From an uncultured archaeon (lineage in GTDB: Archaea > Asgardarchaeota > Jordiarchaeia > Jordiarchaeales > Jordiarchaeaceae): DNA of 32,000 nt. Shown here piece by piece: positions 8,690 through 18,056 of the stretch (position 1 is the first letter of the stretch; each line of letters begins with the position of its first letter). The stretch lies in NCBI GenBank assembly GCA_964510585.1, contig CAZECW010000121.1, positions 1 to 32,000 on the forward strand, given 5' to 3'. Both the position numbers and the translations under genes were made by a program. The notes beneath the pieces were generated by a model. The model did no database searches and was not told the origin of the DNA. It worked only from the letters and a program-made list of their open reading frames with translations.

Positions 8690-8895
8690 TCAGTAACCTC
8701 CATTTTTTAATTAAATTTTTATTTGTTCTGACTAGATATAAACTTTTTTAACGGTGTTTCATTTTCTAGGAAAACATATTTTCATACTTTCTATTAAAGA
8801 TCTTTTAAATTTGGGTGCATACTACTAATTAACAGATGGAACGGTAAACGCCCCAAACTTATACAATGGTTACTTATTTAAGGAAAAGTGATTAC

Positions 8896-9034
8896 CTCGA
8901 AAATGTTAAATTAGATTGTTTTTCCTATCAGGATCACCATAAATAGCCAAAAGCCACAATTCCCTTCAACGAAAAAGGGGAGAAAAACGGGGCAAAAACG
9001 GCTAAGTAACAAATTTAACATTGTCTAGTTATAT
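8896..9034 (+). repeat. Diverged ~135-bp intergenic direct repeat, copy B
   Basis: Colinear similarity with 6670-6804. Confidence 0.65.
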
Positions 9035-9140
9035 TCGTAAGATTCGAGAAGGATGTTACAAGGCCTTGCAAGTTGAACGCGAAGAGATTATATTTATATT
9101 TGTAGGATTCTCCTATTTTTCATAAGTGGTTGTGATTGGA

Positions 9141-10154
9141 ATGGGTGGTTACGGAAGCGATTATGACTACGGTACTACGGATGCTGTGGTCAAGCGTAGT
9201 GCGGCTTCTTATAACATTGATAAGGGTCGAAAGTACACTGAAGTTAAAAGTATTCTCCCTCCGCCCAAGGGAAAAGTGCTCGTTACTAAGGCTAAACTTC
9301 CTTTGGTAGTAGCTGTAGATGTTACGGGTTCCATGCGTGAGTTTCCCAAGATAATTTTCGAAAAGCTATGTATCCTTTATAATGAGGTTTTATTTTTCCT
9401 GCCGGAAGATTTGAAAAACAGTTTTGAGATTTCCTTCGCAGCCTTTGGAGACGCCTACTGTGACCAGGCTCCTCTCCAAGTCACAGACTTCGCCTCTGGA
9501 CCACAGTTAGACCTGAATATTCAATCACTTTATCCGGAGGGTGGTGGCGGGGGATATGCGAGAGAAACATATGAACTTGTGGCTTATTATTATGCTATGA
9601 AGTGTGAATTGCTAAATGCTCAAGTTCAACCGAGACCCATTTTTATCTTTGTGGGTGACGAAGGCTATTATCCAAAGGTGAACCGCGAGCACATTGTGAA
9701 TCTTATAGGTGACAATCCGAGAACCGATGTTGACAGTAAAGAGGTTTTCGACTTATTGATGAAAAAGTTTTCAACATATATTTTGCGGGTGGAATATGAA
9801 TATCCTAAAAATGAAAAAATTATACACAAACAGTGGGAGGAAACTCTGGGGAAGGAACGGGTACGTGTAATGAAAGATCCAAGAAGGGTGGTTGACATCA
9901 TAATCGGAATTGTTGCGACTCATATTGACAAATTCGACGAGTTTAAAGAACGAATAGAAATAAGGCAAACTCAAAGTCAAGTCGAGCAAGTTTATACAAC
10001 TTTGAGTGGCATTGAATCTGAAAACCAGAAGAAATACGTGTATCGAATTGCAGCTTTAGAATGCCCGAAATGTGGAGCAAAGCTGAAAAGTGCACCCGAT
10101 TTCGGAAGACCCGTAGAATGCGAAATGTGCGGCTACATAATAGTCAGAATTTGA
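9141..10154 (+). CDS. von Willebrand factor A (vWA) domain protein with C-terminal zinc ribbon
   Basis: MIDAS motif DVTGSM, FAAFGD, GGGGG..ETYE, IFIFVGDE, and terminal CPKC-x14-CEMC. ATG at 9141 follows GTGAT; the track start is GTG at 9126. Confidence 0.85.
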   Translation: MGGYGSDYDYGTTDAVVKRSAASYNIDKGRKYTEVKSILPPPKGKVLVTKAKLPLVVAVDVTGSMREFPKIIFEKLCILYNEVLFFLPEDLKNSFEISFAAFGDAYCDQAPLQVTDFASGPQLDLNIQSLYPEGGGGGYARETYELVAYYYAMKCELLNAQVQPRPIFIFVGDEGYYPKVNREHIVNLIGDNPRTDVDSKEVFDLLMKKFSTYILRVEYEYPKNEKIIHKQWEETLGKERVRVMKDPRRVVDIIIGIVATHIDKFDEFKERIEIRQTQSQVEQVYTTLSGIESENQKKYVYRIAALECPKCGAKLKSAPDFGRPVECEMCGYIIVRI

Positions 10155-10171
10155 ATGAGCCTGGCAAGTAT

Positions 10172-10804
10172 ATGGAATTAATAGTTTCGAACTCGATTCT
10201 GGACGCTTGGACTAAAAGTCTTAGACTCCTTCAAAAAAATGGCGTCACAATAATGGATGAAGACCAAATCCTCTTTGAGGTTCTCCATCTTTTTCTAATT
10301 TTAGAAAACCCTTTGGATGAAGAAGAAAAAATTAGGGCAATTAATCCCGCTATGGCTAATTGGATGAAAACAAACTTTGAACAAGAAACACTGGTACCAG
10401 AACTGGGTAACGCTAAAAGCTACGGCTATCGCCTAAGAAACTACAAGGGCATAAACCAATTGCAGTGGGTTAAAAACAGATTGAAAACCAAACCGGAAAC
10501 AAAATCCGCCACCATTACACTCCTAATTCCCGATGAGGATACATCTTATATACCCTGCGTAAGTCTAATAGACTTCAAAATCAGGAATAACACACTCCTC
10601 ATGACCGCCACCTGCAGAAGTTTAGACCTCGCAAAAAAAGCAGTATTCAACTTTTTAGCTTTAAAGACAATCGCAGAAGAAATAAAGAACGAACTCGCCC
10701 TAACAAACTTAACCCTGAATATTCACATCATCTCCGCACACATTTACGAAAAAGACCTGCCCCTAACCAAGTCAATCATCAGCACCCTACAGGGAAGAAC
10801 TTAG
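10172..10804 (+). CDS. Thymidylate synthase (ThyA)-like protein, divergent archaeal type
   Basis: YGYRLR, NQL, catalytic PC, DFKIR, RSLD-x7-N and SAHIY motifs. ATG at 10172 preferred because the track start at 10061 overlaps the vWA gene. Confidence 0.85.
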   Translation: MELIVSNSILDAWTKSLRLLQKNGVTIMDEDQILFEVLHLFLILENPLDEEEKIRAINPAMANWMKTNFEQETLVPELGNAKSYGYRLRNYKGINQLQWVKNRLKTKPETKSATITLLIPDEDTSYIPCVSLIDFKIRNNTLLMTATCRSLDLAKKAVFNFLALKTIAEEIKNELALTNLTLNIHIISAHIYEKDLPLTKSIISTLQGRT

Positions 10805-11486
10805 AGAAGACACATTAATTAGAAGCATTACGCACAACAGGATGCATTTTCAAACAGGACATTCACAACAAAAATAAATCCCTTGCCCTAAAACATTGAA
10901 AAAATTTGATTGCTTGTAACTAAAAAATTTCATATAAAATGAGAATTTACGAAAAACAAAAGGGGGAAATAGAAGTATACCTAAATCGCTGAAACTATCA
11001 AAAAGTTTACGACTATGCTCCGCCGCGTTCCCAGATGATTTTAGCAAACTCGTGGAAGAAAACAGAGAGAACGAAAGTCTTGAAAAGCGAGCTTCCCGCC
11101 ACAAAGGAAGGGACGGTAACCTAATACCCTCAGAAAAATCAAATTTCGACTTGAAGATTCTCTACTGGAGGTACTGAAACGGCTGAACTAATTCTAACGG
11201 GTACCACATATAGGGAAATCAAGGGGAAGAGCTTCTAAAAGAATAAAAAAGGAGAAGTGAAAAAAAGTTATCTATTCTCTGCAGGGGCGAGGAGACATGC
11301 CTGCTAATATGTCTTCTAATTCAGTTTAAAGAAACCATAATTCTTTTGGAAGTTCAATACTTGTTTATTTTTTGTTAAAAATTGGTTAAAGAAGCCACGC
11401 CTATAATTAAGTTTTTTAGTGAGAAAGGTCTAAATTTTTCCTTTTTGTAATACTCTCATAGCTTTTATCTTGACTATTCGGAGTTT

Positions 11487-12347
11487 TTGGCAATGTGTGA
11501 TTCCGGTGAGGATTACTGGCTTAAATTATTAAAATTGAACGCTCTAGGCTATGATAAGAGGATAAGTCAAATTAAACAGGTTTTGATAGAAACAAGGGGA
11601 TACGTGTTTGAAAAACCCTTGGGCGAATATGTGATAATTTTGTTTTCGGGCGGTATGGATTCAACAACTTTAATTGATATGGTTATCAAAGAATGGGACT
11701 CTAAAGTGGTACTGCTCTATTTCAGACGGGGCTCCCGGAACCAAAAATGGGAAGAAAAGGCTGTAGATTACTTCTACGAGTTTTATAAGGACAGATACCC
11801 TCAAAACCTAGTCGAACTGGTAAAGTTGGAGATACAGATTCCATCAAAAGTGAATAAGCAATACTTGGATGAAAACCGGAAAAAAATAATGGGCTTACCC
11901 ATGCGAAACGCCACAATGTGGTGTAACTCAGCAACTCAAGCAGTGTATCTTAGCGGGAAATATGGGGAAGCAATAAGAACCATCCTTGTGGGCTCCGTGA
12001 ATGAGGATACCAACTCCCCAGAATCGGGGTACCTATCGGTTCTCTCTCAAAGCCTACATACATGTATATGTCTAGGAATTTGGAACTTCCAGTTCAACGC
12101 TCCCCTTATGGATGACTCATTTAGGCCGGGAGGTTTTTCCAAGGCAGATTTGATTCTCTACGCTAAAGAAAGCGGAATTCCTCTTGAAAAAACCCGCTCC
12201 TGTTTCGAAGCCACGGAGGAGCCATGTGGGAAATGCTTAGCCTGCCAAAACAGAAACGCAGCCTTCGAAACAGTAAACCGAAAAGCCCCCTCTAGTTACC
12301 AAACAGCAAAAAACAATATTCAGGCGGCAGGAAAAGAAGCTAGGTGA
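11487..12347 (+). CDS. QueC-like PP-loop ATPase (7-cyano-7-deazaguanine synthase family), divergent
   Basis: LFSGGMDS PP-loop, PMRN, and TRSC-x7-CGKCLAC four-Cys zinc site. About 45-aa N-terminal extension; no YPDCR motif. Confidence 0.85.
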   Translation: MAMCDSGEDYWLKLLKLNALGYDKRISQIKQVLIETRGYVFEKPLGEYVIILFSGGMDSTTLIDMVIKEWDSKVVLLYFRRGSRNQKWEEKAVDYFYEFYKDRYPQNLVELVKLEIQIPSKVNKQYLDENRKKIMGLPMRNATMWCNSATQAVYLSGKYGEAIRTILVGSVNEDTNSPESGYLSVLSQSLHTCICLGIWNFQFNAPLMDDSFRPGGFSKADLILYAKESGIPLEKTRSCFEATEEPCGKCLACQNRNAAFETVNRKAPSSYQTAKNNIQAAGKEAR

Positions 12348-12353
12348 CCTAAA

Positions 12354-13298
12354 ATGGAGGTGTTTTTAACCCTATCTCCTTACGCCCAATATTTGAGAGA
12401 GGTGAGTAGATACCCGTTAGTAAAAGCCCTCAGATTTAATACTGGAGCACAATTAAATGAGGGTATTGAGGATGCACTCACCCGTTTCAGAGAAACCATT
12501 AAACCGAAGGAGCTCTGGATTGACCTGAAATGCAGAGAGCTCCGACTAGTTAAAGCCACAGAACTCACCAAAGACAATAATGTTCTCGAAATTAACCAAA
12601 AAATCAGAGTTAACACCCCCACACTCTTATACTACAATGATGGAAAAAACTATTTGCAAATCGACAAGGTGATAGAAAAAAGCAAACTTCAAATCCACAT
12701 TCCAGAACAATATTCTGACACCTTCAATATCACATTCGGAAAAGGTACACCATTTAATATCCCCGACGAATCGCTAGTGGTCGAAGAATACTTAACGGTT
12801 CAAGATAAAAGATTCGTGGAAGCGGCTCAAAAACTCGGCATCCACAAATATCTGCTATCATTCGTGGAACAGAAATCAGACATTTTCGAACTATTAAAGC
12901 TAGACCCAGAAGCAAAAATAATCGCAAAAATAGAATCAATCAAAGGCTTAGAATTCGTCGAAAACACTTACCTCGAAGTGAATGAAAACGTCCGGCTAAT
13001 GGCCGCCAGAGGCGACATGTATGTGGAACTAGAATGGCCACACCAAATTCTAGGCGCACTAGCAAAAATTATTAAAGCCGACAAAAACGCAATAGCTGCT
13101 TCTCGCATACTAGAATCAACTCTGAATCCAGAGAAACTCCCCAACTGCGCAGATATTTCAGACATGGCGCTTTTATTAAAAATGGGCTACCGCTCATTTC
13201 TATTAGGAGATAACATATGCGAAAAAGAAGGCTCACTAAAATCAGCCCTAGGTCTTATGGAAGCAATCTACCAAGAATTTCTAAAAAACAAATTTTAG
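12354..13298 (+). CDS. Pyruvate kinase-like protein (A/B domains only, no C-terminal domain)
   Basis: TLSP, RFN, DLKCRELR, SFV, IIAKIE, MAARGDMYVE and ASRILES correspond to PK motifs TLGP, RLN, DTKGPEIR, SFV, IIAKIE, MVARGDLGVE and ATQMLES. Ends at 314 aa. Confidence 0.85.
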   Translation: MEVFLTLSPYAQYLREVSRYPLVKALRFNTGAQLNEGIEDALTRFRETIKPKELWIDLKCRELRLVKATELTKDNNVLEINQKIRVNTPTLLYYNDGKNYLQIDKVIEKSKLQIHIPEQYSDTFNITFGKGTPFNIPDESLVVEEYLTVQDKRFVEAAQKLGIHKYLLSFVEQKSDIFELLKLDPEAKIIAKIESIKGLEFVENTYLEVNENVRLMAARGDMYVELEWPHQILGALAKIIKADKNAIAASRILESTLNPEKLPNCADISDMALLLKMGYRSFLLGDNICEKEGSLKSALGLMEAIYQEFLKNKF

Positions 13299-13843
13299 AG
13301 GACAAAACACTGAGCAGGGATTCAGCGGCTTCTTTAAGTATTTTCAATGCGTCATTAGTTAATCTTTCCGATTCTTTCGCCTTTAATACTGCTCCTAGCT
13401 GAACAAATCCGCATGCAGCAGATACCCAGTAGTTCAGTCTTTTCATTTTTTGTTCAGTTCAAGGTTCACTCAGTCGTTTTAGAAATAGACTAACCGCCTT
13501 TTTTCTGAGGGTTGAATCTTTTAATATATGTGTGGCGTATTGCAGGCATAAACGGCCTCTTTCAGCAAGTGTTTTCCTTTATAAATCAGAATATGGGTGT
13601 ATTTGCCATGAAAACTTATTTCATAATTTGTCTAAAACGCTTAAGCGTATACGGGTTTCCCATGATTTAGCTCAAATTTTAAATCTTCACCATAATTGCT
13701 GGAATGCTGAAAAGAAGCTTAATGCTTCCTTCTTTTTTCCCACATGAAACCTTAAGTGAAAGCAAGAAACCTCCTTTTGGCAAAAGTGGGAATAAACTCT
13801 AAATTTAATTCGCCGAGGTAAATACGCACTTCGCCTCTAATTT

Positions 13844-14302
13844 TCATTTTAGTTTGACGCCTGCCAGTTTTATTGTTTCAAGAACCACGTGGCTTTCCAC
13901 TTTTTCTATTCCTTTAATATTGGATATCTTTGAAATTAGCTCTAGGGCTTCCTGCCGATCTTTGCACATTCCGAGAACTAGTAAGTCGCACTCTCCGCTA
14001 ACCCTTAGAACGACGTACACTTGAGGCAGACTCGCTACTTCCCTCCCGATGGTGGCGAGGTTTGCTCCGGTTTTTGTAGCTATGCGAATACATAAAGAGT
14101 ATAAGTTCAAGTATTCGGGGTCTAATATAATTGTGTATCCTCTTATCACGTTTTCCTCCTCTAGCTTTTTTATTCTGCTTGATACGTTTGCGTGACTCAC
14201 CCCAAGCTTTTTTGCTATATCTCGATAGGAGAGGCGAGAATCAAGTGAGAGTAACTCTAAAATTTTTTTGTCTAATTCTTCAAGCACCAATATCTCCACC
14301 AC
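13844..14302 (-). CDS. Lrp/AsnC-family transcriptional regulator
   Basis: LDKKILELL...DSRLSYRDIAKKLGVS...RIKKLEEENVIRGY helix-turn-helix plus RAM-type C-terminal domain. Confidence 0.95.
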   Translation of the reverse strand: MVEILVLEELDKKILELLSLDSRLSYRDIAKKLGVSHANVSSRIKKLEEENVIRGYTIILDPEYLNLYSLCIRIATKTGANLATIGREVASLPQVYVVLRVSGECDLLVLGMCKDRQEALELISKISNIKGIEKVESHVVLETIKLAGVKLK

Positions 14303-15771: not shown

Positions 15772-16749
15772 TTATAGTAAATTACACTCCCGAAGCAATT
15801 TAGTCCAATCATTTTTTCTGTATCTGAGTTCACTTATTTTGACAAGGTATCTTTCTTCGTTTACTTTACCCAAGTAGGGTAGTTTTTCATCCCTTTTAAT
15901 AGGTGTATATTCTGAGGTTTTGAAATATCCAGAGACAAAACCTTTAAGATTTGTTTTTATTTCTCCACATTTATAGGCTTTAATTCTTTTTCTCATCTCT
16001 TCAAGGTAGCCCTTGAAGCGGCCGTTACTAGAAGGGATTTTGCTCTCTGCAAAATCAAGGAGTCTAGTGAAACCGCAGACTTCGATGAAGAATTGTAAAA
16101 TAAGTGGTTGCGGTATAAAACATTTAACATTGATTCCATAATCGTAGCCTATGTCGGCTTCAGCCCAGATACCGGCTATGGAAGGAGAGGATTTTATGCT
16201 AATGTTCTTGCTTGCGTTTACAATATCATTTCTATATTTTTCAATTTTGGGTGAAATTTCCCAGTCCAGCTCGATTTTTGAGGAAAAGTTTCTTTCAAGA
16301 AATTTCTTGACAACGATCTCGCCAAATTTTCCATTAAACTGATCCACAATAATTTTGTCGAACGTTCTTTTTTGTTCTCTAGATCCTTTTTGAGAAATAG
16401 TTGCTCTTGAACCTCCAGAGAACATTTGATATGTAATTTCAATACAAAATATGAGTAGTCGTACTATGTCTTCGTCATCTAATCTTAAGGTAATTGTGTT
16501 TGGTATCAATTTTTCTTTGACCCAACTAAAGACATTTTCTTCATTTAAAAACATCTTGTTTCCTTTTAAGCCGATCACATTAAAATCGTTACACCTACAT
16601 ACTGAGAGAAGTAGCTTACATAAGTCTTCTATGCTAAAGTCTATTCCACTTACCTTCACAATATACTCTTTGAGGTTTTGTATATGCTCACCTAATTTTG
16701 TTCTGAATTTGGGGTAAGAATTTAGTTCACCTTTTGAAATCTCAAGCAC
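15772..16749 (-). CDS. Putative type II restriction endonuclease
   Basis: Two bases downstream of a DNA methyltransferase gene, AT-rich, with a PD-(D/E)xK-like arrangement (GKFGE...ND...ISIKSS). Family not recognised. Confidence 0.55.
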   Translation of the reverse strand: MLEISKGELNSYPKFRTKLGEHIQNLKEYIVKVSGIDFSIEDLCKLLLSVCRCNDFNVIGLKGNKMFLNEENVFSWVKEKLIPNTITLRLDDEDIVRLLIFCIEITYQMFSGGSRATISQKGSREQKRTFDKIIVDQFNGKFGEIVVKKFLERNFSSKIELDWEISPKIEKYRNDIVNASKNISIKSSPSIAGIWAEADIGYDYGINVKCFIPQPLILQFFIEVCGFTRLLDFAESKIPSSNGRFKGYLEEMRKRIKAYKCGEIKTNLKGFVSGYFKTSEYTPIKRDEKLPYLGKVNEERYLVKISELRYRKNDWTKLLRECNLL

Positions 16750-16751
16750 AC

Positions 16752-18056
16752 TTAATCACTTTTCCTTAAAAATATTAGGTGTTCAGTCTTCATTCTGCTA
16801 TCCTTTTCGCCGGATGCGGGGTTTATTCCTGACTCGAACATTACATGCGAGACTATTTTATCTATAAATGTTGCCTCATGTGTCCAACCAAACTCTTTTA
16901 GATGTTCAGCAACTATCTCATCTATGGGGATGGGAGTTGTTCTTATTTTGGCAGGCCCAACAAAAATGAACATGTAGTCCTTGACATCTTCGCATAATGT
17001 GGAGAAAGCTTTTAAAATTGCATTAAAATATCTGTCGTAAAGTTCTTTAAGATAAGCTTCACTTATTTTCTCTCTAAACTCGTAGTACTTCTCTGAAAAA
17101 ATTTTAATTTTACTTACGGGTCTATAAGGGATTTCTTTTTTACTTAGTTGTCTTATGTATTGTTCATCATAACCCAACCAGAATAATTCAAGTTTTGTTG
17201 ATCGAATGTATTCTTGAGCCTGTAAATATGGGGGTGATGTAATAATCATGTTAACTTCATTTTCCAGCTTCGTTTCTAATGTGTCAATTCCTGATTTAAT
17301 CCTGTATTCAACTGGTTTTGGATTGAGATGGTTGTATTCTCGAATTTTTCTGAGGAGTGTGCGTATTTCATTACTCAGCATGGTATAAAATTTTGATTTC
17401 CAATCTGTCTTTAAAAGTTCTTCTATTTTCTTTCTGGAAAATTTTGATCTGTATAATTTGTGTACTTTCTCATCACTATAGGAGAAGTACTTGGTTACTT
17501 TAAGTAATGGTACTAATAGTAAATACTTAGATTCGTCGTTTAATGAGTGGGCAAAACCCCAAGCTTTGGAAAGTATAGAGAGGAACTCCTCAGGAAACCA
17601 ATATTCCAGGTTAGACCATTTAGGAGCAAATTCTTCTTTTGAACTTTTGATGTTTTGCATTAATTTTGGAATGTTTATTTCTGCCTTCCTCATGATGGCG
17701 GTATCATGAATTACGTTAATAATTGGATTCAAGTCCCACAATTCATAGTCATACCCATAAACTCGGGATACCACTCCGACTGTACCGTAGCCCGCAAAGG
17801 GATCGAACACTTTCATGCCTGGATTAGCGTATTCCTTTAGGATGTAAGCGATAATTTGAGGAATAAATTTGGCGGGATATTTATAAATTGAGAATGTGCC
17901 ATATGTGGTTGTTGGAATTTCGGGTATCGTATTCCTAAAAAGTATAGGAATTTTTTTGGGTGAATCAGTTAAAATTTCAGAAGCGTACTCTTTATTTCCG
18001 ATGTCTTTACCGGAGTTTAAGGGCAATTGACGGTGCCTTTTTTTTCCCTCATACAT
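16752..18056 (-). CDS. DNA amino-methyltransferase, probably N4-cytosine type
   Basis: YKYPAKFIPQ, motif I DPFAGYGT, then motif IV ITSPPY. Confidence 0.9.
   Translation of the reverse strand: MYEGKKRHRQLPLNSGKDIGNKEYASEILTDSPKKIPILFRNTIPEIPTTTYGTFSIYKYPAKFIPQIIAYILKEYANPGMKVFDPFAGYGTVGVVSRVYGYDYELWDLNPIINVIHDTAIMRKAEINIPKLMQNIKSSKEEFAPKWSNLEYWFPEEFLSILSKAWGFAHSLNDESKYLLLVPLLKVTKYFSYSDEKVHKLYRSKFSRKKIEELLKTDWKSKFYTMLSNEIRTLLRKIREYNHLNPKPVEYRIKSGIDTLETKLENEVNMIITSPPYLQAQEYIRSTKLELFWLGYDEQYIRQLSKKEIPYRPVSKIKIFSEKYYEFREKISEAYLKELYDRYFNAILKAFSTLCEDVKDYMFIFVGPAKIRTTPIPIDEIVAEHLKEFGWTHEATFIDKIVSHVMFESGINPASGEKDSRMKTEHLIFLRKSD

What the first reader, a model, noticed from the sequence alone, without database searches (positions are those of the whole stretch)
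9141..13298. Unexplained four-gene cluster: vWA/Zn-ribbon + ThyA-like + QueC-like + pyruvate-kinase-barrel-only protein
Seen: four co-oriented genes in two tight pairs (vWA-ThyA-like gap 17 nt; QueC-like-PK-like gap 6 nt), directly followed by a sulfur relay and an R-M pair. Established: ThyA-fold enzymes alkylate pyrimidine C5, QueC-family enzymes adenylate and amidate a deazapurine carboxylate, and the PK barrel transfers phosphate from PEP to a nucleoside diphosphate. Each of the three enzymes here deviates from its housekeeping form, and I know no pathway that combines them. Inference: a module that makes or installs a modified nucleotide, possibly for defence or conflict, with the vWA protein as scaffold or substrate. 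This is the best candidate for an undescribed system in the window.
Basis: partly seen in the sequence, partly recalled or inferred. Interest (0 to 1): 0.8.

Follow-up and report, generated by a model that had tools for sequence, protein, structure and literature searches.

The report
Glycine-tipped vWA nucleotide-tagging gene cluster
A hot-spring Asgard archaeon carries an accessory four-gene cassette that I did not find described in the papers I searched; it joins a metal-binding adaptor protein to three remodelled nucleotide enzymes and may attach a modified base to the adaptor's glycine tip, a kind of protein tagging shown so far in one bacterial anti-phage system and inferred in a second.

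Summary
Four co-oriented genes lie at 9141-13298: vWA + Zn-ribbon, ThyA-like, QueC-like and a pyruvate-kinase-like protein without the C domain. The gaps are 17 and 6 nt, as stated.

All are extra copies. The genome also has a canonical QueC, a canonical PK and a genus-wide ThyA homolog. The cassette fills a variable site and is present in 2 of 6 genomes of the genus and 3 of 251 sampled Asgard genomes, always as one block.

The same gene order recurs in Jord-, Hod-, Sigyn-, Prometh- and Helarchaeota. A longer version occurs in DPANN archaea.

The conserved core is the vWA + mini-PK pair, not all four genes. It occurs in about 300 species genomes and one megaphage, mostly inside NAD-synthesis operons.

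Wherever QueC-like is present, the vWA protein starts MGG on a disordered tail. That matches the substrates of Cap9 and QatC.

Best reading (about 0.4): QueC-like ligates a carboxylated base to Gly2 of the vWA protein, and ThyA-like and mini-PK make or activate that base.

No paper I searched describes this. Earlier notes of this scan reported the DPANN relatives on other DNA.

The sulfur-relay and R-M genes belong to the flank, not the module.

The parts
9141..10154 (+). vWA-fold protein of 337 aa. It has a disordered N-terminal tail starting M-G-G (residues 1 to about 35, 9141-9245), a MIDAS motif D60-x-T62-G63-S64 (9318-9332) and a C-terminal Zn ribbon with two CxxC (about 10053-10151).
   Evidence: start and motifs; AF2 pLDDT 88.5; residues 1-6 below 50, first 30 residues 46-63; Foldseek hits to vWA/integrin beta-I, NorD and TFIIH p44 folds. 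No Pfam, NCBIfam or PADLOC hit.
10172..10804 (+). ThyA-like enzyme of 210 aa (short, methanogen-type). Catalytic Cys129 lies at 10556-10558. R149/S150, N160 and H190/Y192 are invariant in the family. The folate-binding Trp motif and the SRR motif are replaced.
   Evidence: TIGR03283 110.9 bits, cut-off 174.55; family alignment A2 and alignment to TS 4dq1/1tis.
10805..11486 (+). Decayed remnant of a fifth gene (clearest at about 11040-11260). The closest relative, L121, has an intact 252-aa gene here, and Helarchaeota has a 361-aa PCI/wHTH gene at the same position.
   Evidence: about 80% column identity over about 200 nt, with 5-, 1- and 8-nt indels; stops in all three frames. No Rfam family or tRNA.
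11493..12347 (+). QueC-family PP-loop ATPase of 284 aa with a roughly 45-aa N-terminal extension. SGGMDS lies at 11646-11663, an LPMRN motif is present, and the Zn motif C237-x7-C-x2-C-x2-C251 lies at 12201-12245. The canonical YxQxHxxE and YPDC substrate motifs are absent.
12354..13298 (+). Pyruvate-kinase-like enzyme of 314 aa: A (TIM barrel) and small B domains, no C domain. Invariant in the family: R27, N29, D57, K59, K192 (12927-12929), E194, D221 (13014-13016), S250.
   Evidence: pLDDT 96.4; the listed top matches are all pyruvate kinases, TMq 0.70-0.77.

Best explanation
This is an accessory, horizontally mobile cassette. It is a single-origin variant of a widespread two-gene core, a vWA-fold protein plus a minimal pyruvate-kinase-like phosphotransferase. 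In this variant the vWA protein is probably the substrate. After removal of Met1, its free Gly2 amine on a flexible tail enters the QueC-like PP-loop enzyme. That enzyme adenylates a carboxylate on a base or nucleotide and forms an amide with the protein N-terminus, as Cap9 does with CdnD and as QatC is inferred to do with QatB. The ThyA-like enzyme would act at C5 of a uracil-type mononucleotide. The mini-PK would use PEP to phosphorylate a nucleotide or an intermediate. Together they would supply or activate the moiety that is attached, or process it afterwards. The tagged vWA protein, through its MIDAS site and Zn ribbon, would then act as a switchable adaptor, probably in conflict with viruses or other mobile elements. 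Shown here: gene content, conservation of the block, accessory status, folds, retained catalytic residues, and the link between the MGG tail and QueC-like. Inferred: the conjugation itself, the identity of the base, the roles of ThyA-like and mini-PK, and any defence role.
For: (1) Accessory and mobile. The cluster-type ThyA-like and PK-like genes occur in 2 of 6 genus genomes and in the same 3 of 251 sampled Asgard genomes, on the same contig 1-2 kb apart. In G001 and G004 the window's flanks are only 1.0 and 2.0 kb apart and enclose other content; G001 carries the cassette on another contig.
(2) Inherited as a block. The order vWA-ThyA-QueC-PK is seen in Jord-, Hod-, Sigyn-, Prometh- and Helarchaeota, with different flanks. 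In the PK-like ML tree all ThyA/QueC-type copies (8 Asgard, 4 DPANN) and two decayed loci form one clade (99/88), with the Asgard subclade at 100/100.
(3) Link between QueC-like and a glycine tip. Every vWA partner in a locus with QueC-like begins MGG, in both Asgard and DPANN. The roughly 50 vWA homologs in NAD-type loci without QueC-like begin MYSWG or similar.
(4) The tail is disordered in the AF2 model. CdnD carries an N-terminal extension and QatB an unresolved tail of 30-90 residues, and their N-terminal M(G/S)G.. and MGTS motifs are essential.
(5) QueC-like keeps the PP-loop, the RN motif and the Zn motif but lacks the YxQxHxxE and YPDC motifs of canonical QueC. Its best solved relative by profile is Cap9 (E 1.3e-6), against QueC at 4.8e-4.
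(6) Complex prediction, QueC-like + vWA: weak support. Score 0.38, best of 3 controls 0.00. The mark was reached by 58 of 80 solved complexes and 2 of 110 mismatched pairs, but scores of 0.60 or under came from only 7 of those 80 and from both mismatches that passed. The runs agree in at least 25% of contacts and the partner's pLDDT is at least 79. My own alignments were used, and like complexes (Cap9-CdnD, QatBC) are solved, so the pass may come from memory.
(7) ThyA-like and mini-PK keep their catalytic residues. In DPANN a Ham1 NTP pyrophosphatase sits directly before ThyA-like, the layout expected for feeding a free NMP.
(8) Other MG-tipped vWA homologs sit near a different base-amine ligase, a PurA-like adenylosuccinate synthetase: Acidobacteriota L028/L040, Saccharibacteria L098 and Bxz1-type mycobacteriophages.
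Against: No biochemical data exist for any member. An MGG tip is not specific to QueC-like partners: 73 of the top 150 family representatives start MG, with unknown context, and DPANN locus L126 has two MGG-vWA genes, PK, Ham1 and ThyA but no QueC-like detectable by profile. The loci are related, so the tail-QueC association is one or a few evolutionary events, not some 15 independent ones. Nothing in the cassette obviously makes a carboxylated base, because ThyA-type chemistry gives methyl or hydroxymethyl groups. With YPDC missing, the host's 7-carboxy-7-deazaguanine is not an obvious substrate, although the genome has QueD and QueC. The universal vWA + mini-PK pairing, which also occurs with non-glycine tails, is not explained by this model. 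No TGT-like (Cap10) or QatA/QatD-like gene is present. The complex score is weak and one of the three runs gave 0.05.
Confidence: 0.4

Rival explanations
1. A small-molecule pathway. The enzymes make a modified pyrimidine nucleotide: NTP to NMP (Ham1 in DPANN), C5 alkylation by ThyA-like, ATP-dependent amidation of a carboxylate by QueC-like, and PEP-driven NDP to NTP by mini-PK. The product would be an antiviral nucleotide analogue, a DNA/RNA modification precursor or a signal. The vWA protein would only scaffold or regulate the enzymes.
For: All three enzymes keep the residues for nucleotide chemistry, including the phosphate-binding Arg/Ser and the uracil-specifying Asn in ThyA-like and the PK catalytic K/E/D. 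The Ham1-ThyA pairing in DPANN and in a CPR bacterium without vWA or PK (L132) points to a free nucleotide substrate. Distant bacterial ThyA-like relatives sit beside a PurM-like ATPase and Schlafen/NACHT genes, a conflict-type context. From general knowledge, the layout resembles the T4 route dCTPase, dCMP hydroxymethylase, kinases.
Against: No NMP kinase, polymerase, glycosylase or transferase that would install or use the product is in the cassette. The model does not explain why vWA is the most constant partner, nor why its N-terminal tip co-varies with the presence of QueC-like. QueC-like has lost the canonical small-molecule substrate motifs.
Confidence: 0.27
2. An NAD/ADP-ribose-centred accessory module. 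The vWA + mini-PK core belongs to NAD homeostasis, for example PEP-driven regeneration or phosphorylation of an adenine-nucleotide intermediate, or a sensor of NAD depletion. The Asgard cassette would be a derived version in which QueC-like stands in for NadE-type carboxylate amidation on a pyridine or pyrimidine nucleotide.
For: In DPANN the pair sits in a co-directional operon: NAPRTase, nicotinamidase-like, NadE, Nudix, NMNAT-like, Ser/Thr kinase, vWA, (unknown gene), PK-like, ADP-ribosylglycohydrolase, in some loci with NadA. In Chloroflexota the order is NMNAT-like, vWA, PK-like, NadE. The DPANN ThyA/QueC version L122 lies next to NadE, a nicotinamidase-like gene, NAD kinase and NAPRTase. 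A megaphage carries kinase, vWA and PK-like with an ADP-ribosylglycohydrolase nearby. NadE and QueC are both PP-loop carboxylate amidases (general knowledge).
Against: No NAD gene is in or beside the Asgard cassettes. The ThyA/QueC-type copies are a separate clade from the NAD-operon copies. ThyA chemistry has no known link to pyridine nucleotides.
Confidence: 0.15
3. Ordinary housekeeping paralogs (thymidylate synthase, preQ0 synthase, pyruvate kinase) that happen to be neighbours.
For: Public annotations call them thymidylate synthase and pyruvate kinase. The genome has no ThyX, so a ThyA is needed.
Against: All three score far below NCBIfam equivalog cut-offs: 110.9 vs 174.55, 48 vs 150.3, 50.9 vs 306.4. 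A canonical QueC (201 bits) and a canonical PK (350 bits) exist elsewhere. A 424-aa ThyA homolog next to an MtrH-like gene is present in the genus genomes that lack the cassette. The cassette is missing from 4 of 6 genus genomes and 248 of 251 sampled Asgard genomes, yet is always found as a block.
Confidence: 0.03

Closest known systems
Type IV CBASS Cap9 acting on the CD-NTase CdnD (N-terminal deazaguanylation; Wassarman et al. 2025, bioRxiv 10.1101/2025.04.06.647259)
   Same: A QueC-family PP-loop enzyme with a Zn motif is encoded with a partner protein whose flexible N-terminus begins M-G-G. Cap9 is the best solved sequence relative of the QueC-like profile. The proposed chemistry, an adenylated base carboxylate attacked by the Gly2 amine, is taken from this system.
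   Different: The partner is a vWA/Zn-ribbon protein, not a nucleotidyltransferase. There is no TGT-like Cap10, Cap11 or effector. Cap9 keeps the YxQ...E and Y-x-DC substrate motifs, and this protein does not. ThyA-like and mini-PK have no counterpart. The organisms are archaeal, and no defence phenotype is known.
QatABCD: the QatC-QatB pair (Gao et al. 2026, PMC13279940; PMC13329287)
   Same: A divergent QueC-family enzyme that has lost the canonical QueC substrate motifs is paired with a protein that has a long disordered N-terminal tail and an essential N-terminal glycine motif.
   Different: The NF041925 QatC model scores 29.8 against a cut-off of 280. There is no QatA ATPase or QatD TatD nuclease. 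QatB is all-helical, not vWA.
TerY-P triad (TerY-like vWA + PP2C phosphatase + Ser/Thr kinase; Anantharaman et al. 2012, as summarised in PMC11090510)
   Same: A MIDAS-bearing vWA protein serves as the hub of a small conflict-associated cassette. In the DPANN, megaphage and mycobacteriophage relatives a Hanks-type kinase directly precedes the vWA gene. The Ter literature also links vWA systems to synthesis of a nucleoside-like metabolite.
   Different: There is no kinase or phosphatase in the window. No Pfam VWA/TerY or PADLOC model matches the protein. The constant partner here is a PK-like barrel, which is not part of TerY-P.
Phage pyrimidine hypermodification routes (T4 dCMP hydroxymethylase pathway; 5-hmdU-based thymidine hypermodification). 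Recalled from general knowledge, not checked in a paper here
   Same: A ThyA-fold enzyme outside housekeeping is combined with an NTP pyrophosphatase (in the DPANN version) and a phosphotransferase. In those pathways an activated 5-methylene group is attacked by an amine such as glycine.
   Different: Those routes use P-loop kinases and act on DNA or dNTP pools. There is no vWA protein, no QueC-like enzyme and no PK-fold kinase.

Membership tests
Canonical QueC (7-cyano-7-deazaguanine synthase) | SGGxDS pyrophosphate loop and a C(x)8CxxCxxC zinc motif | tested here: met
   SGGMDS is invariant. The Zn motif is present as C-x7-C-x2-C-x2-C, compared with the definition in PMC13329287.
Canonical QueC (7-cyano-7-deazaguanine synthase) | Substrate-side motifs YxQxHxxE and YPDC (Y35 and Y131 essential), VPxRN, and a score above the TIGR00364 cut-off | tested here: not met
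   Only the P-x-R-N part is kept (LPMRN). YxQxHxxE and YPDC are replaced. TIGR00364 scores 48 against a cut-off of 150.3. A canonical QueC (201 bits) is elsewhere in the genome.
Protein-conjugating QueC-family systems (Cap9/CdnD, QatC/QatB) | An operon partner with a disordered N-terminal tail that begins Met-Gly-(Gly/Ser/Thr) | tested here: met
   The vWA protein starts MGG in all loci that have QueC-like. Tail residues 1-30 have pLDDT 46-63.
Protein-conjugating QueC-family systems (Cap9/CdnD, QatC/QatB) | A physical complex of the QueC-like enzyme with the partner, with the tail in the active site | tested here: inconclusive
   Complex prediction gave weak support: 0.38 against a best control of 0.00. 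No interface was reported and the pass may come from memory of solved complexes.
Protein-conjugating QueC-family systems (Cap9/CdnD, QatC/QatB) | The accompanying genes of the named systems (Cap10 TGT-like and CD-NTase, or QatA and QatD) and a match to their models | tested here: not met
   None is in the window. QatC models give only weak partial hits: NF041925 29.8 against 280, and PDLC02214 at E 1.7e-6.
Protein-conjugating QueC-family systems (Cap9/CdnD, QatC/QatB) | A covalent base adduct on Gly2 | not testable with these tools
   Needs mass spectrometry of the expressed protein.
Thymidylate synthase ThyA | Catalytic Cys, phosphate-binding Arg-Ser, uracil-specifying Asn, His/Tyr at the sugar 3'-OH | tested here: met
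   C129, R149/S150, N160 and H190/Y192 are invariant in 32 family members and align to the corresponding TS motifs in 4dq1 and 1tis. The residue roles come from general knowledge of E. coli TS.
Thymidylate synthase ThyA | Folate-binding YGxQWR tryptophans, the SRR arginines from the partner subunit, a score above the equivalog cut-off, and a housekeeping distribution | tested here: not met
   The motifs read YGxRLxxY and TKS. TIGR03283 scores 110.9 against 174.55. The gene is present in 3 of 251 sampled Asgard genomes, and another ThyA homolog is conserved in the genus.
Pyruvate kinase | A-domain TIM barrel with the catalytic Lys/Glu/Asp and the RxN and DxK motifs, plus a B-domain lid | tested here: met
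   R27, N29, D57, K59, K192, E194, D221 and S250 are invariant in 37 sequences. In the AF2 model (pLDDT 96.4) the listed top solved matches are all PKs, TMq 0.70-0.77. The mapping to PK residues is by motif and from general knowledge.
Pyruvate kinase | The C-terminal allosteric/tetramerisation domain and scores above the family cut-offs | tested here: not met
   The protein has 314 aa and ends where the C domain would begin. TIGR01064 scores 50.9 against 306.4. A canonical 491-aa PK is on contig C169.
von Willebrand A domain | Rossmann-like vWA fold with a MIDAS DxSxS motif | tested here: met
   Foldseek probability 1.0 to integrin beta-I, SpaC, NorD and TFIIH p44 vWA domains. D60-x-T62-x-S64 is conserved. 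No Pfam model reaches E 0.01.
TerY-P triad / known defence systems in PADLOC | A vWA protein together with PP2C and a Ser/Thr kinase, or any PADLOC system model | tested here: not met
   There is no kinase or phosphatase in the cassette. The only PADLOC hits among the four genes are the QueC/QatC models to QueC-like (PDLC00911, E 1.9e-16; PDLC02214, E 1.7e-6).

The most novel reading that the evidence does not exclude
The vWA family with class-specific N-terminal tips (MGG.., MSESxDY.., MYSWG..) is a general, undescribed kind of protein hub in archaea, bacteria, giant phages and some eukaryote-like sequences, and its tip is covalently marked by neighbouring nucleotide enzymes. In the Asgard/DPANN variant the mark would be a pyrimidine-derived base rather than a deazapurine. 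It would be built by a ThyA-fold enzyme and a PEP-dependent mini-kinase and ligated to Gly2 by a QueC-like enzyme. In other variants a PurA-like enzyme would join a purine C6 to the same glycine amine. This would be a second and third chemistry of base-protein conjugation, and the first in archaea.
Probability: 0.15. Interest if true: 0.9.

Novelty: new variant of a known kind. Interest (0 to 1): 0.72.

Why it matters
Direct base-to-protein conjugation by QueC-like enzymes was discovered only in 2025-2026. It has been shown in one bacterial anti-phage system (Cap9-CdnD) and inferred in a second (QatC-QatB). The authors of that work predicted further systems.

This cassette is a concrete archaeal candidate, from Asgard archaea, the lineage nearest to eukaryotes. 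It has a different substrate protein, a QueC-like enzyme with a remodelled base pocket, and two extra enzymes that point to a different base.

It also gives a testable handle on a much larger unknown. The vWA + minimal pyruvate-kinase pair is present in about 300 species genomes and one megaphage, often inside NAD-synthesis operons, and I found no published function for it in the papers I searched.

If the tagging model is wrong, the alternative is an unknown modified pyrimidine nucleotide pathway, which would still be new biochemistry.

Tried and rejected
- PADLOC, NCBIfam and Pfam gave nothing for the vWA protein, and no defence-system match beyond the QueC/QatC model hits to QueC-like.
- A single-protein search for related loci with PK-like found only an unrelated Flavobacteriaceae hit. 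The alignment-based scan was needed.
- The 680-nt gap was tested as an RNA gene. No Rfam match at E<=1 and no tRNA. It is a decayed protein gene instead.
- PDB sequence searches of the two large DPANN-only proteins (603 and 711 aa) gave nothing usable. They are not in the window and were dropped.
- The reading 'housekeeping paralogs' was rejected on distribution and scores.
- The reading 'the cassette belongs with the DsrEFH/Lrp/R-M neighbours' was rejected for the Lrp-Dsr stretch, which is conserved flank where the cassette is absent. The R-M genes themselves were not traced in relatives.
- Literature searches for vWA + pyruvate-kinase-like + NAD, for QueC-like conjugation and for TerY found no description of this cluster. 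The 2026 QueC-family survey left its small archaeal clusters unanalysed.
- Expression: no RNA holder listed among public runs; the holders are three hot-spring metagenomes.
- A direct repeat flanking the island (8752-8798 and 13596-13637, about 35 of 46 positions) was found by local alignment. It is AT-rich and weak, so I do not claim it as an attachment site.

Full report
**What is there**

The window is contig C121 of a 3.78-Mb, 96%-complete MAG. Source names on near-identical proteins place it in Asgard archaea (Jordarchaeia / 'Freyarchaeota'). The public runs that hold the stretch are hot-spring metagenomes.

Four + strand ORFs lie at 9126/9141-10154, 10061/10172-10804, 11487/11493-12347 and 12354-13298. 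Homolog starts fix the vWA start at ATG 9141 and the ThyA-like start at ATG 10172.

- Pfam calls genes 2-4 Thymidylat_synt (47.5 bits), QueC (71.2) and PK barrel (48.5).
- All three are far below NCBIfam equivalog cut-offs.
- Gene 1 matches no library. Its AlphaFold model (pLDDT 88.5) is a vWA fold by Foldseek (probability 1.0 to integrin beta-I, SpaC, NorD and TFIIH p44), with a DxTGS MIDAS motif, a C-terminal double-CxxC ribbon and a low-confidence N-terminal tail.
- The PK-like model (pLDDT 96.4) matches real pyruvate kinases over the A and B domains (TMq 0.70-0.77) and has no C domain.

**Not housekeeping**

- The genome has a canonical QueC (201 bits, C162), a QueD and a canonical 491-aa PK (350 bits, C169). 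It has no ThyX.
- A second ThyA homolog, a 424-aa protein next to an MtrH-like gene on C71, is present in the genus genomes that lack the cassette.
- The cassette's ThyA-like and PK-like genes are found in only 2 of 6 genus genomes. In a sample of 251 Asgard genomes they occur in the same three genomes, on the same contig 1-2 kb apart.
- In G001 and G004 the window's left flank (to 8746) and right flank (from 13847: Lrp/AsnC, DsrE/F/H-like) are 1.0 and 2.0 kb apart and enclose other content. G001 carries its cassette on a different contig.
- So 8747-13846 is an insertion at a variable site. The sulfur-relay genes, and by their position beyond them on the same opposite strand the R-M genes, are flank and not partners.

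**Conserved as a block**

The order vWA, ThyA-like, QueC-like, PK-like recurs with different surroundings in two Jordarchaeaceae MAGs, a JGI metagenome contig, Hodarchaeota, Sigynarchaeum, Promethearchaeota and genome G072. In Helarchaeota the PK-like gene is displaced.

The closest relative (82% ThyA identity) has a 252-aa gene between ThyA-like and QueC-like. Helarchaeota has a 361-aa PCI/wHTH gene at that position. In the window the 680-nt gap keeps about 200 nt of recognisable but frameshifted remnant.

**The real core**

The PK-like family is large. 446 proteins were hit in the 90%-clustered database, and 302 stretches in GTDB species genomes encode a relative. They span Asgard, DPANN, Chloroflexota, Myxococcota, Planctomycetota, Acidobacteriota, Clostridia and Saccharibacteria.

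In my neighbourhood analysis of 84 loci, a homolog of the vWA protein lies directly upstream of PK-like in at least 61 loci. ThyA-like and QueC-like occur in only 8-9.

- In DPANN the pair sits in a long co-directional operon: NAPRTase, nicotinamidase-like, NadE, Nudix, NMNAT-like, Ser/Thr kinase, vWA, (unknown gene), PK-like, ADP-ribosylglycohydrolase. Some loci also have NadA.
- In Chloroflexota the order is NMNAT-like, vWA, PK-like, NadE.
- A 485-kb uncultured phage has DnaJ-kinase, vWA and PK-like, with an ADP-ribosylglycohydrolase nearby.
- In an ML tree of PK-like proteins, all ThyA/QueC-type copies (8 Asgard, 4 DPANN) and two decayed loci form one clade (99/88), separate from the NAD-operon clade. 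The Asgard subclade has 100/100 support.
- One of the decayed loci, L026, still has an 80-aa QueC-like fragment before PK-like.
- The ThyA/QueC insertion therefore arose once and has travelled with the pair.
- The DPANN version is longer: vWA(x1-2), PK, Ham1, ThyA, QueC, then four unknown genes and PfkB. In L122 it again lies beside NAD genes.

**Active sites**

- ThyA-like family (63 proteins, Asgard and DPANN). The catalytic Cys, the Arg-Ser of the QRSxD block, the uracil-specifying Asn and the His/Tyr pair are invariant. The folate tryptophans and the SRR arginines are replaced. Residue roles come from general knowledge of TS.
- PK-like. The RxN, DxK, KIE and ARGD motifs and a Ser at the Thr-327 position are invariant. 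The motif mapping is from general knowledge. A PEP- or phosphoryl-transfer site is therefore kept.
- QueC-like. It keeps SGGMDS, P-x-R-N and the four-Cys zinc motif and has a conserved 45-aa N-terminal extension. It lacks the YxQxHxxE and YPDC motifs that the 2026 family survey showed to be essential in canonical QueC, and that Cap9 retains. Its best solved sequence relative is Cap9 (E 1.3e-6), against QueC at 4.8e-4. Both matches are marginal.

**The glycine tip**

A lead from earlier notes of this scan pointed to N-terminal conjugation, and I tested it.

- In every locus with QueC-like, in Asgard and DPANN, the vWA protein begins MGG followed by a Tyr/Asp/Ser-rich tail.
- In the roughly 50 NAD-type loci it begins MYSWG. 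In the megaphage it begins MSESADY.
- Cap9 conjugates 7-carboxy-7-deazaguanine to Gly2 of CdnD, whose N-terminus reads M(G/S)G(G/S)GG. QatB needs its MGTS tip and disordered tail.
- The vWA tail is disordered in the model.
- A complex prediction of QueC-like with vWA gave weak support: 0.38, best control 0.00. See the calibration counts under Best explanation. Similar complexes are solved, so memory cannot be excluded.

Limits of this evidence:

- The loci are related, so the association is few events.
- MG tips are common in the wider family: 73 of the top 150 of 1314 representatives, with unknown context.
- Locus L126 has MGG-vWA genes without a detectable QueC-like.
- Several MG-tipped homologs instead sit near a PurA-like adenylosuccinate synthetase, another enzyme that joins a base to an amine. 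These are in Acidobacteriota, Saccharibacteria and about 200 Bxz1-type mycobacteriophages.

**Most likely mechanism and rivals**

I rate at about 0.4 that QueC-like ligates a carboxylated base or nucleotide to Gly2 of the vWA protein. ThyA-like and mini-PK would make, activate or further process that moiety, and the tagged MIDAS/Zn-ribbon protein would act as an adaptor in a conflict system.

- What carries the carboxylate is open. ThyA chemistry alone does not give one.
- The lost YPDC motif argues against the host's deazaguanine.
- The universal vWA + mini-PK pairing is not explained.

Rivals:

- A small-molecule modified-pyrimidine pathway with vWA as scaffold (0.27).
- An NAD/ADP-ribose-linked module (0.15).
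- Housekeeping paralogs (0.03).

**Novelty**

I found no description of this cluster or of the vWA + mini-PK pair in the searchable literature. The 2026 QueC-family survey left its small archaeal clusters unanalysed.

Earlier agents of this scan had already noted the DPANN NAD-operon trio and the DPANN long version on other DNA.

Noticed in passing
window 10805-11486 (clearest at 11040-11260): Frameshifted, stop-ridden remnant of a gene that is intact (252 aa) at the same position in the closest relative, L121:9810-10568. Helarchaeota L128 has a 361-aa PCI/wHTH (E3_UFM1_ligase-like) gene there. This may be an optional adaptor of the cassette.
   Followed up: partly
window 13602-13665 (and 13665-13830): A roughly 65-nt element just downstream of the cassette is multi-copy in genus relatives: most of the 63 matches of this flank query in G004 fall on it, some in tandem arrays with a period of about 57 nt (for example G004:C128:7370-7607). 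The adjacent roughly 160 nt also recur on several contigs. The nature of the repeat is unknown.
   Followed up: partly
window 8893-9031: A MITE-like element upstream of the vWA gene, with 20-nt terminal inverted repeats 99 nt apart. About 140 nt of it recur at 70-75% identity in G002:C451 and G003:C53.
   Followed up: no
G000:C71:10609-10986 (locus L010:862-2136, - strand): A 424-aa protein whose residues 87-212 match thymidylate synthase, encoded next to an MtrH-like methyltransferase and present in the genus genomes that lack the cassette. It is the likely housekeeping TS of a genome without ThyX, in an unusual fused form.
   Followed up: partly
L131, L136, L138-L145, L147 (marine Proteobacteria): Distant ThyA-like relatives (28-32% identity) are paired with a PurM/AIR-synthase-like gene. 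In most of these loci they are flanked by a Schlafen-AlbA_2/NACHT protein of about 1090 aa and a TPR protein. This is a different, apparently conflict-related ThyA-fold system.
   Followed up: partly
L152 (Mycobacterium phage LinStu gp257-gp260) and about 200 related phages: Kinase, vWA homolog (with an internal MGSGAWDSYTY start candidate), a small ORF, then a PurA-like adenylosuccinate synthetase. The vWA hub occurs there without the PK-like gene.
   Followed up: partly
L148 (uncultured 485-kb phage LR745208.1, 4949-7912 of the locus): DnaJ-Ser/Thr kinase, vWA (MSESADY tip) and PK-like in a row. A Thg1-like gene and an ADP-ribosylglycohydrolase lie a few kb downstream.
   Followed up: partly
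proteins P0207, P0227, P0234, P0246, P0254, P0267, P0269 and others: Longer vWA-family members, many of them MGG-tipped (P0207 is not), with low-complexity Asn-rich linkers and C-terminal tails that look like U-box domains. They may be eukaryotic, where MG would also be a myristoylation signal. I read the U-box likeness from the sequences by eye and did not test it.
   Followed up: no
window 15772-18056 (- strand): A type II methyltransferase (434 aa; PADLOC MTase_II, E 1e-26) with an adjacent 325-aa protein that weakly matches REase_II (E 1.3e-3). It looks like an ordinary R-M pair beyond the conserved Lrp/DsrEFH flank.
   Followed up: no
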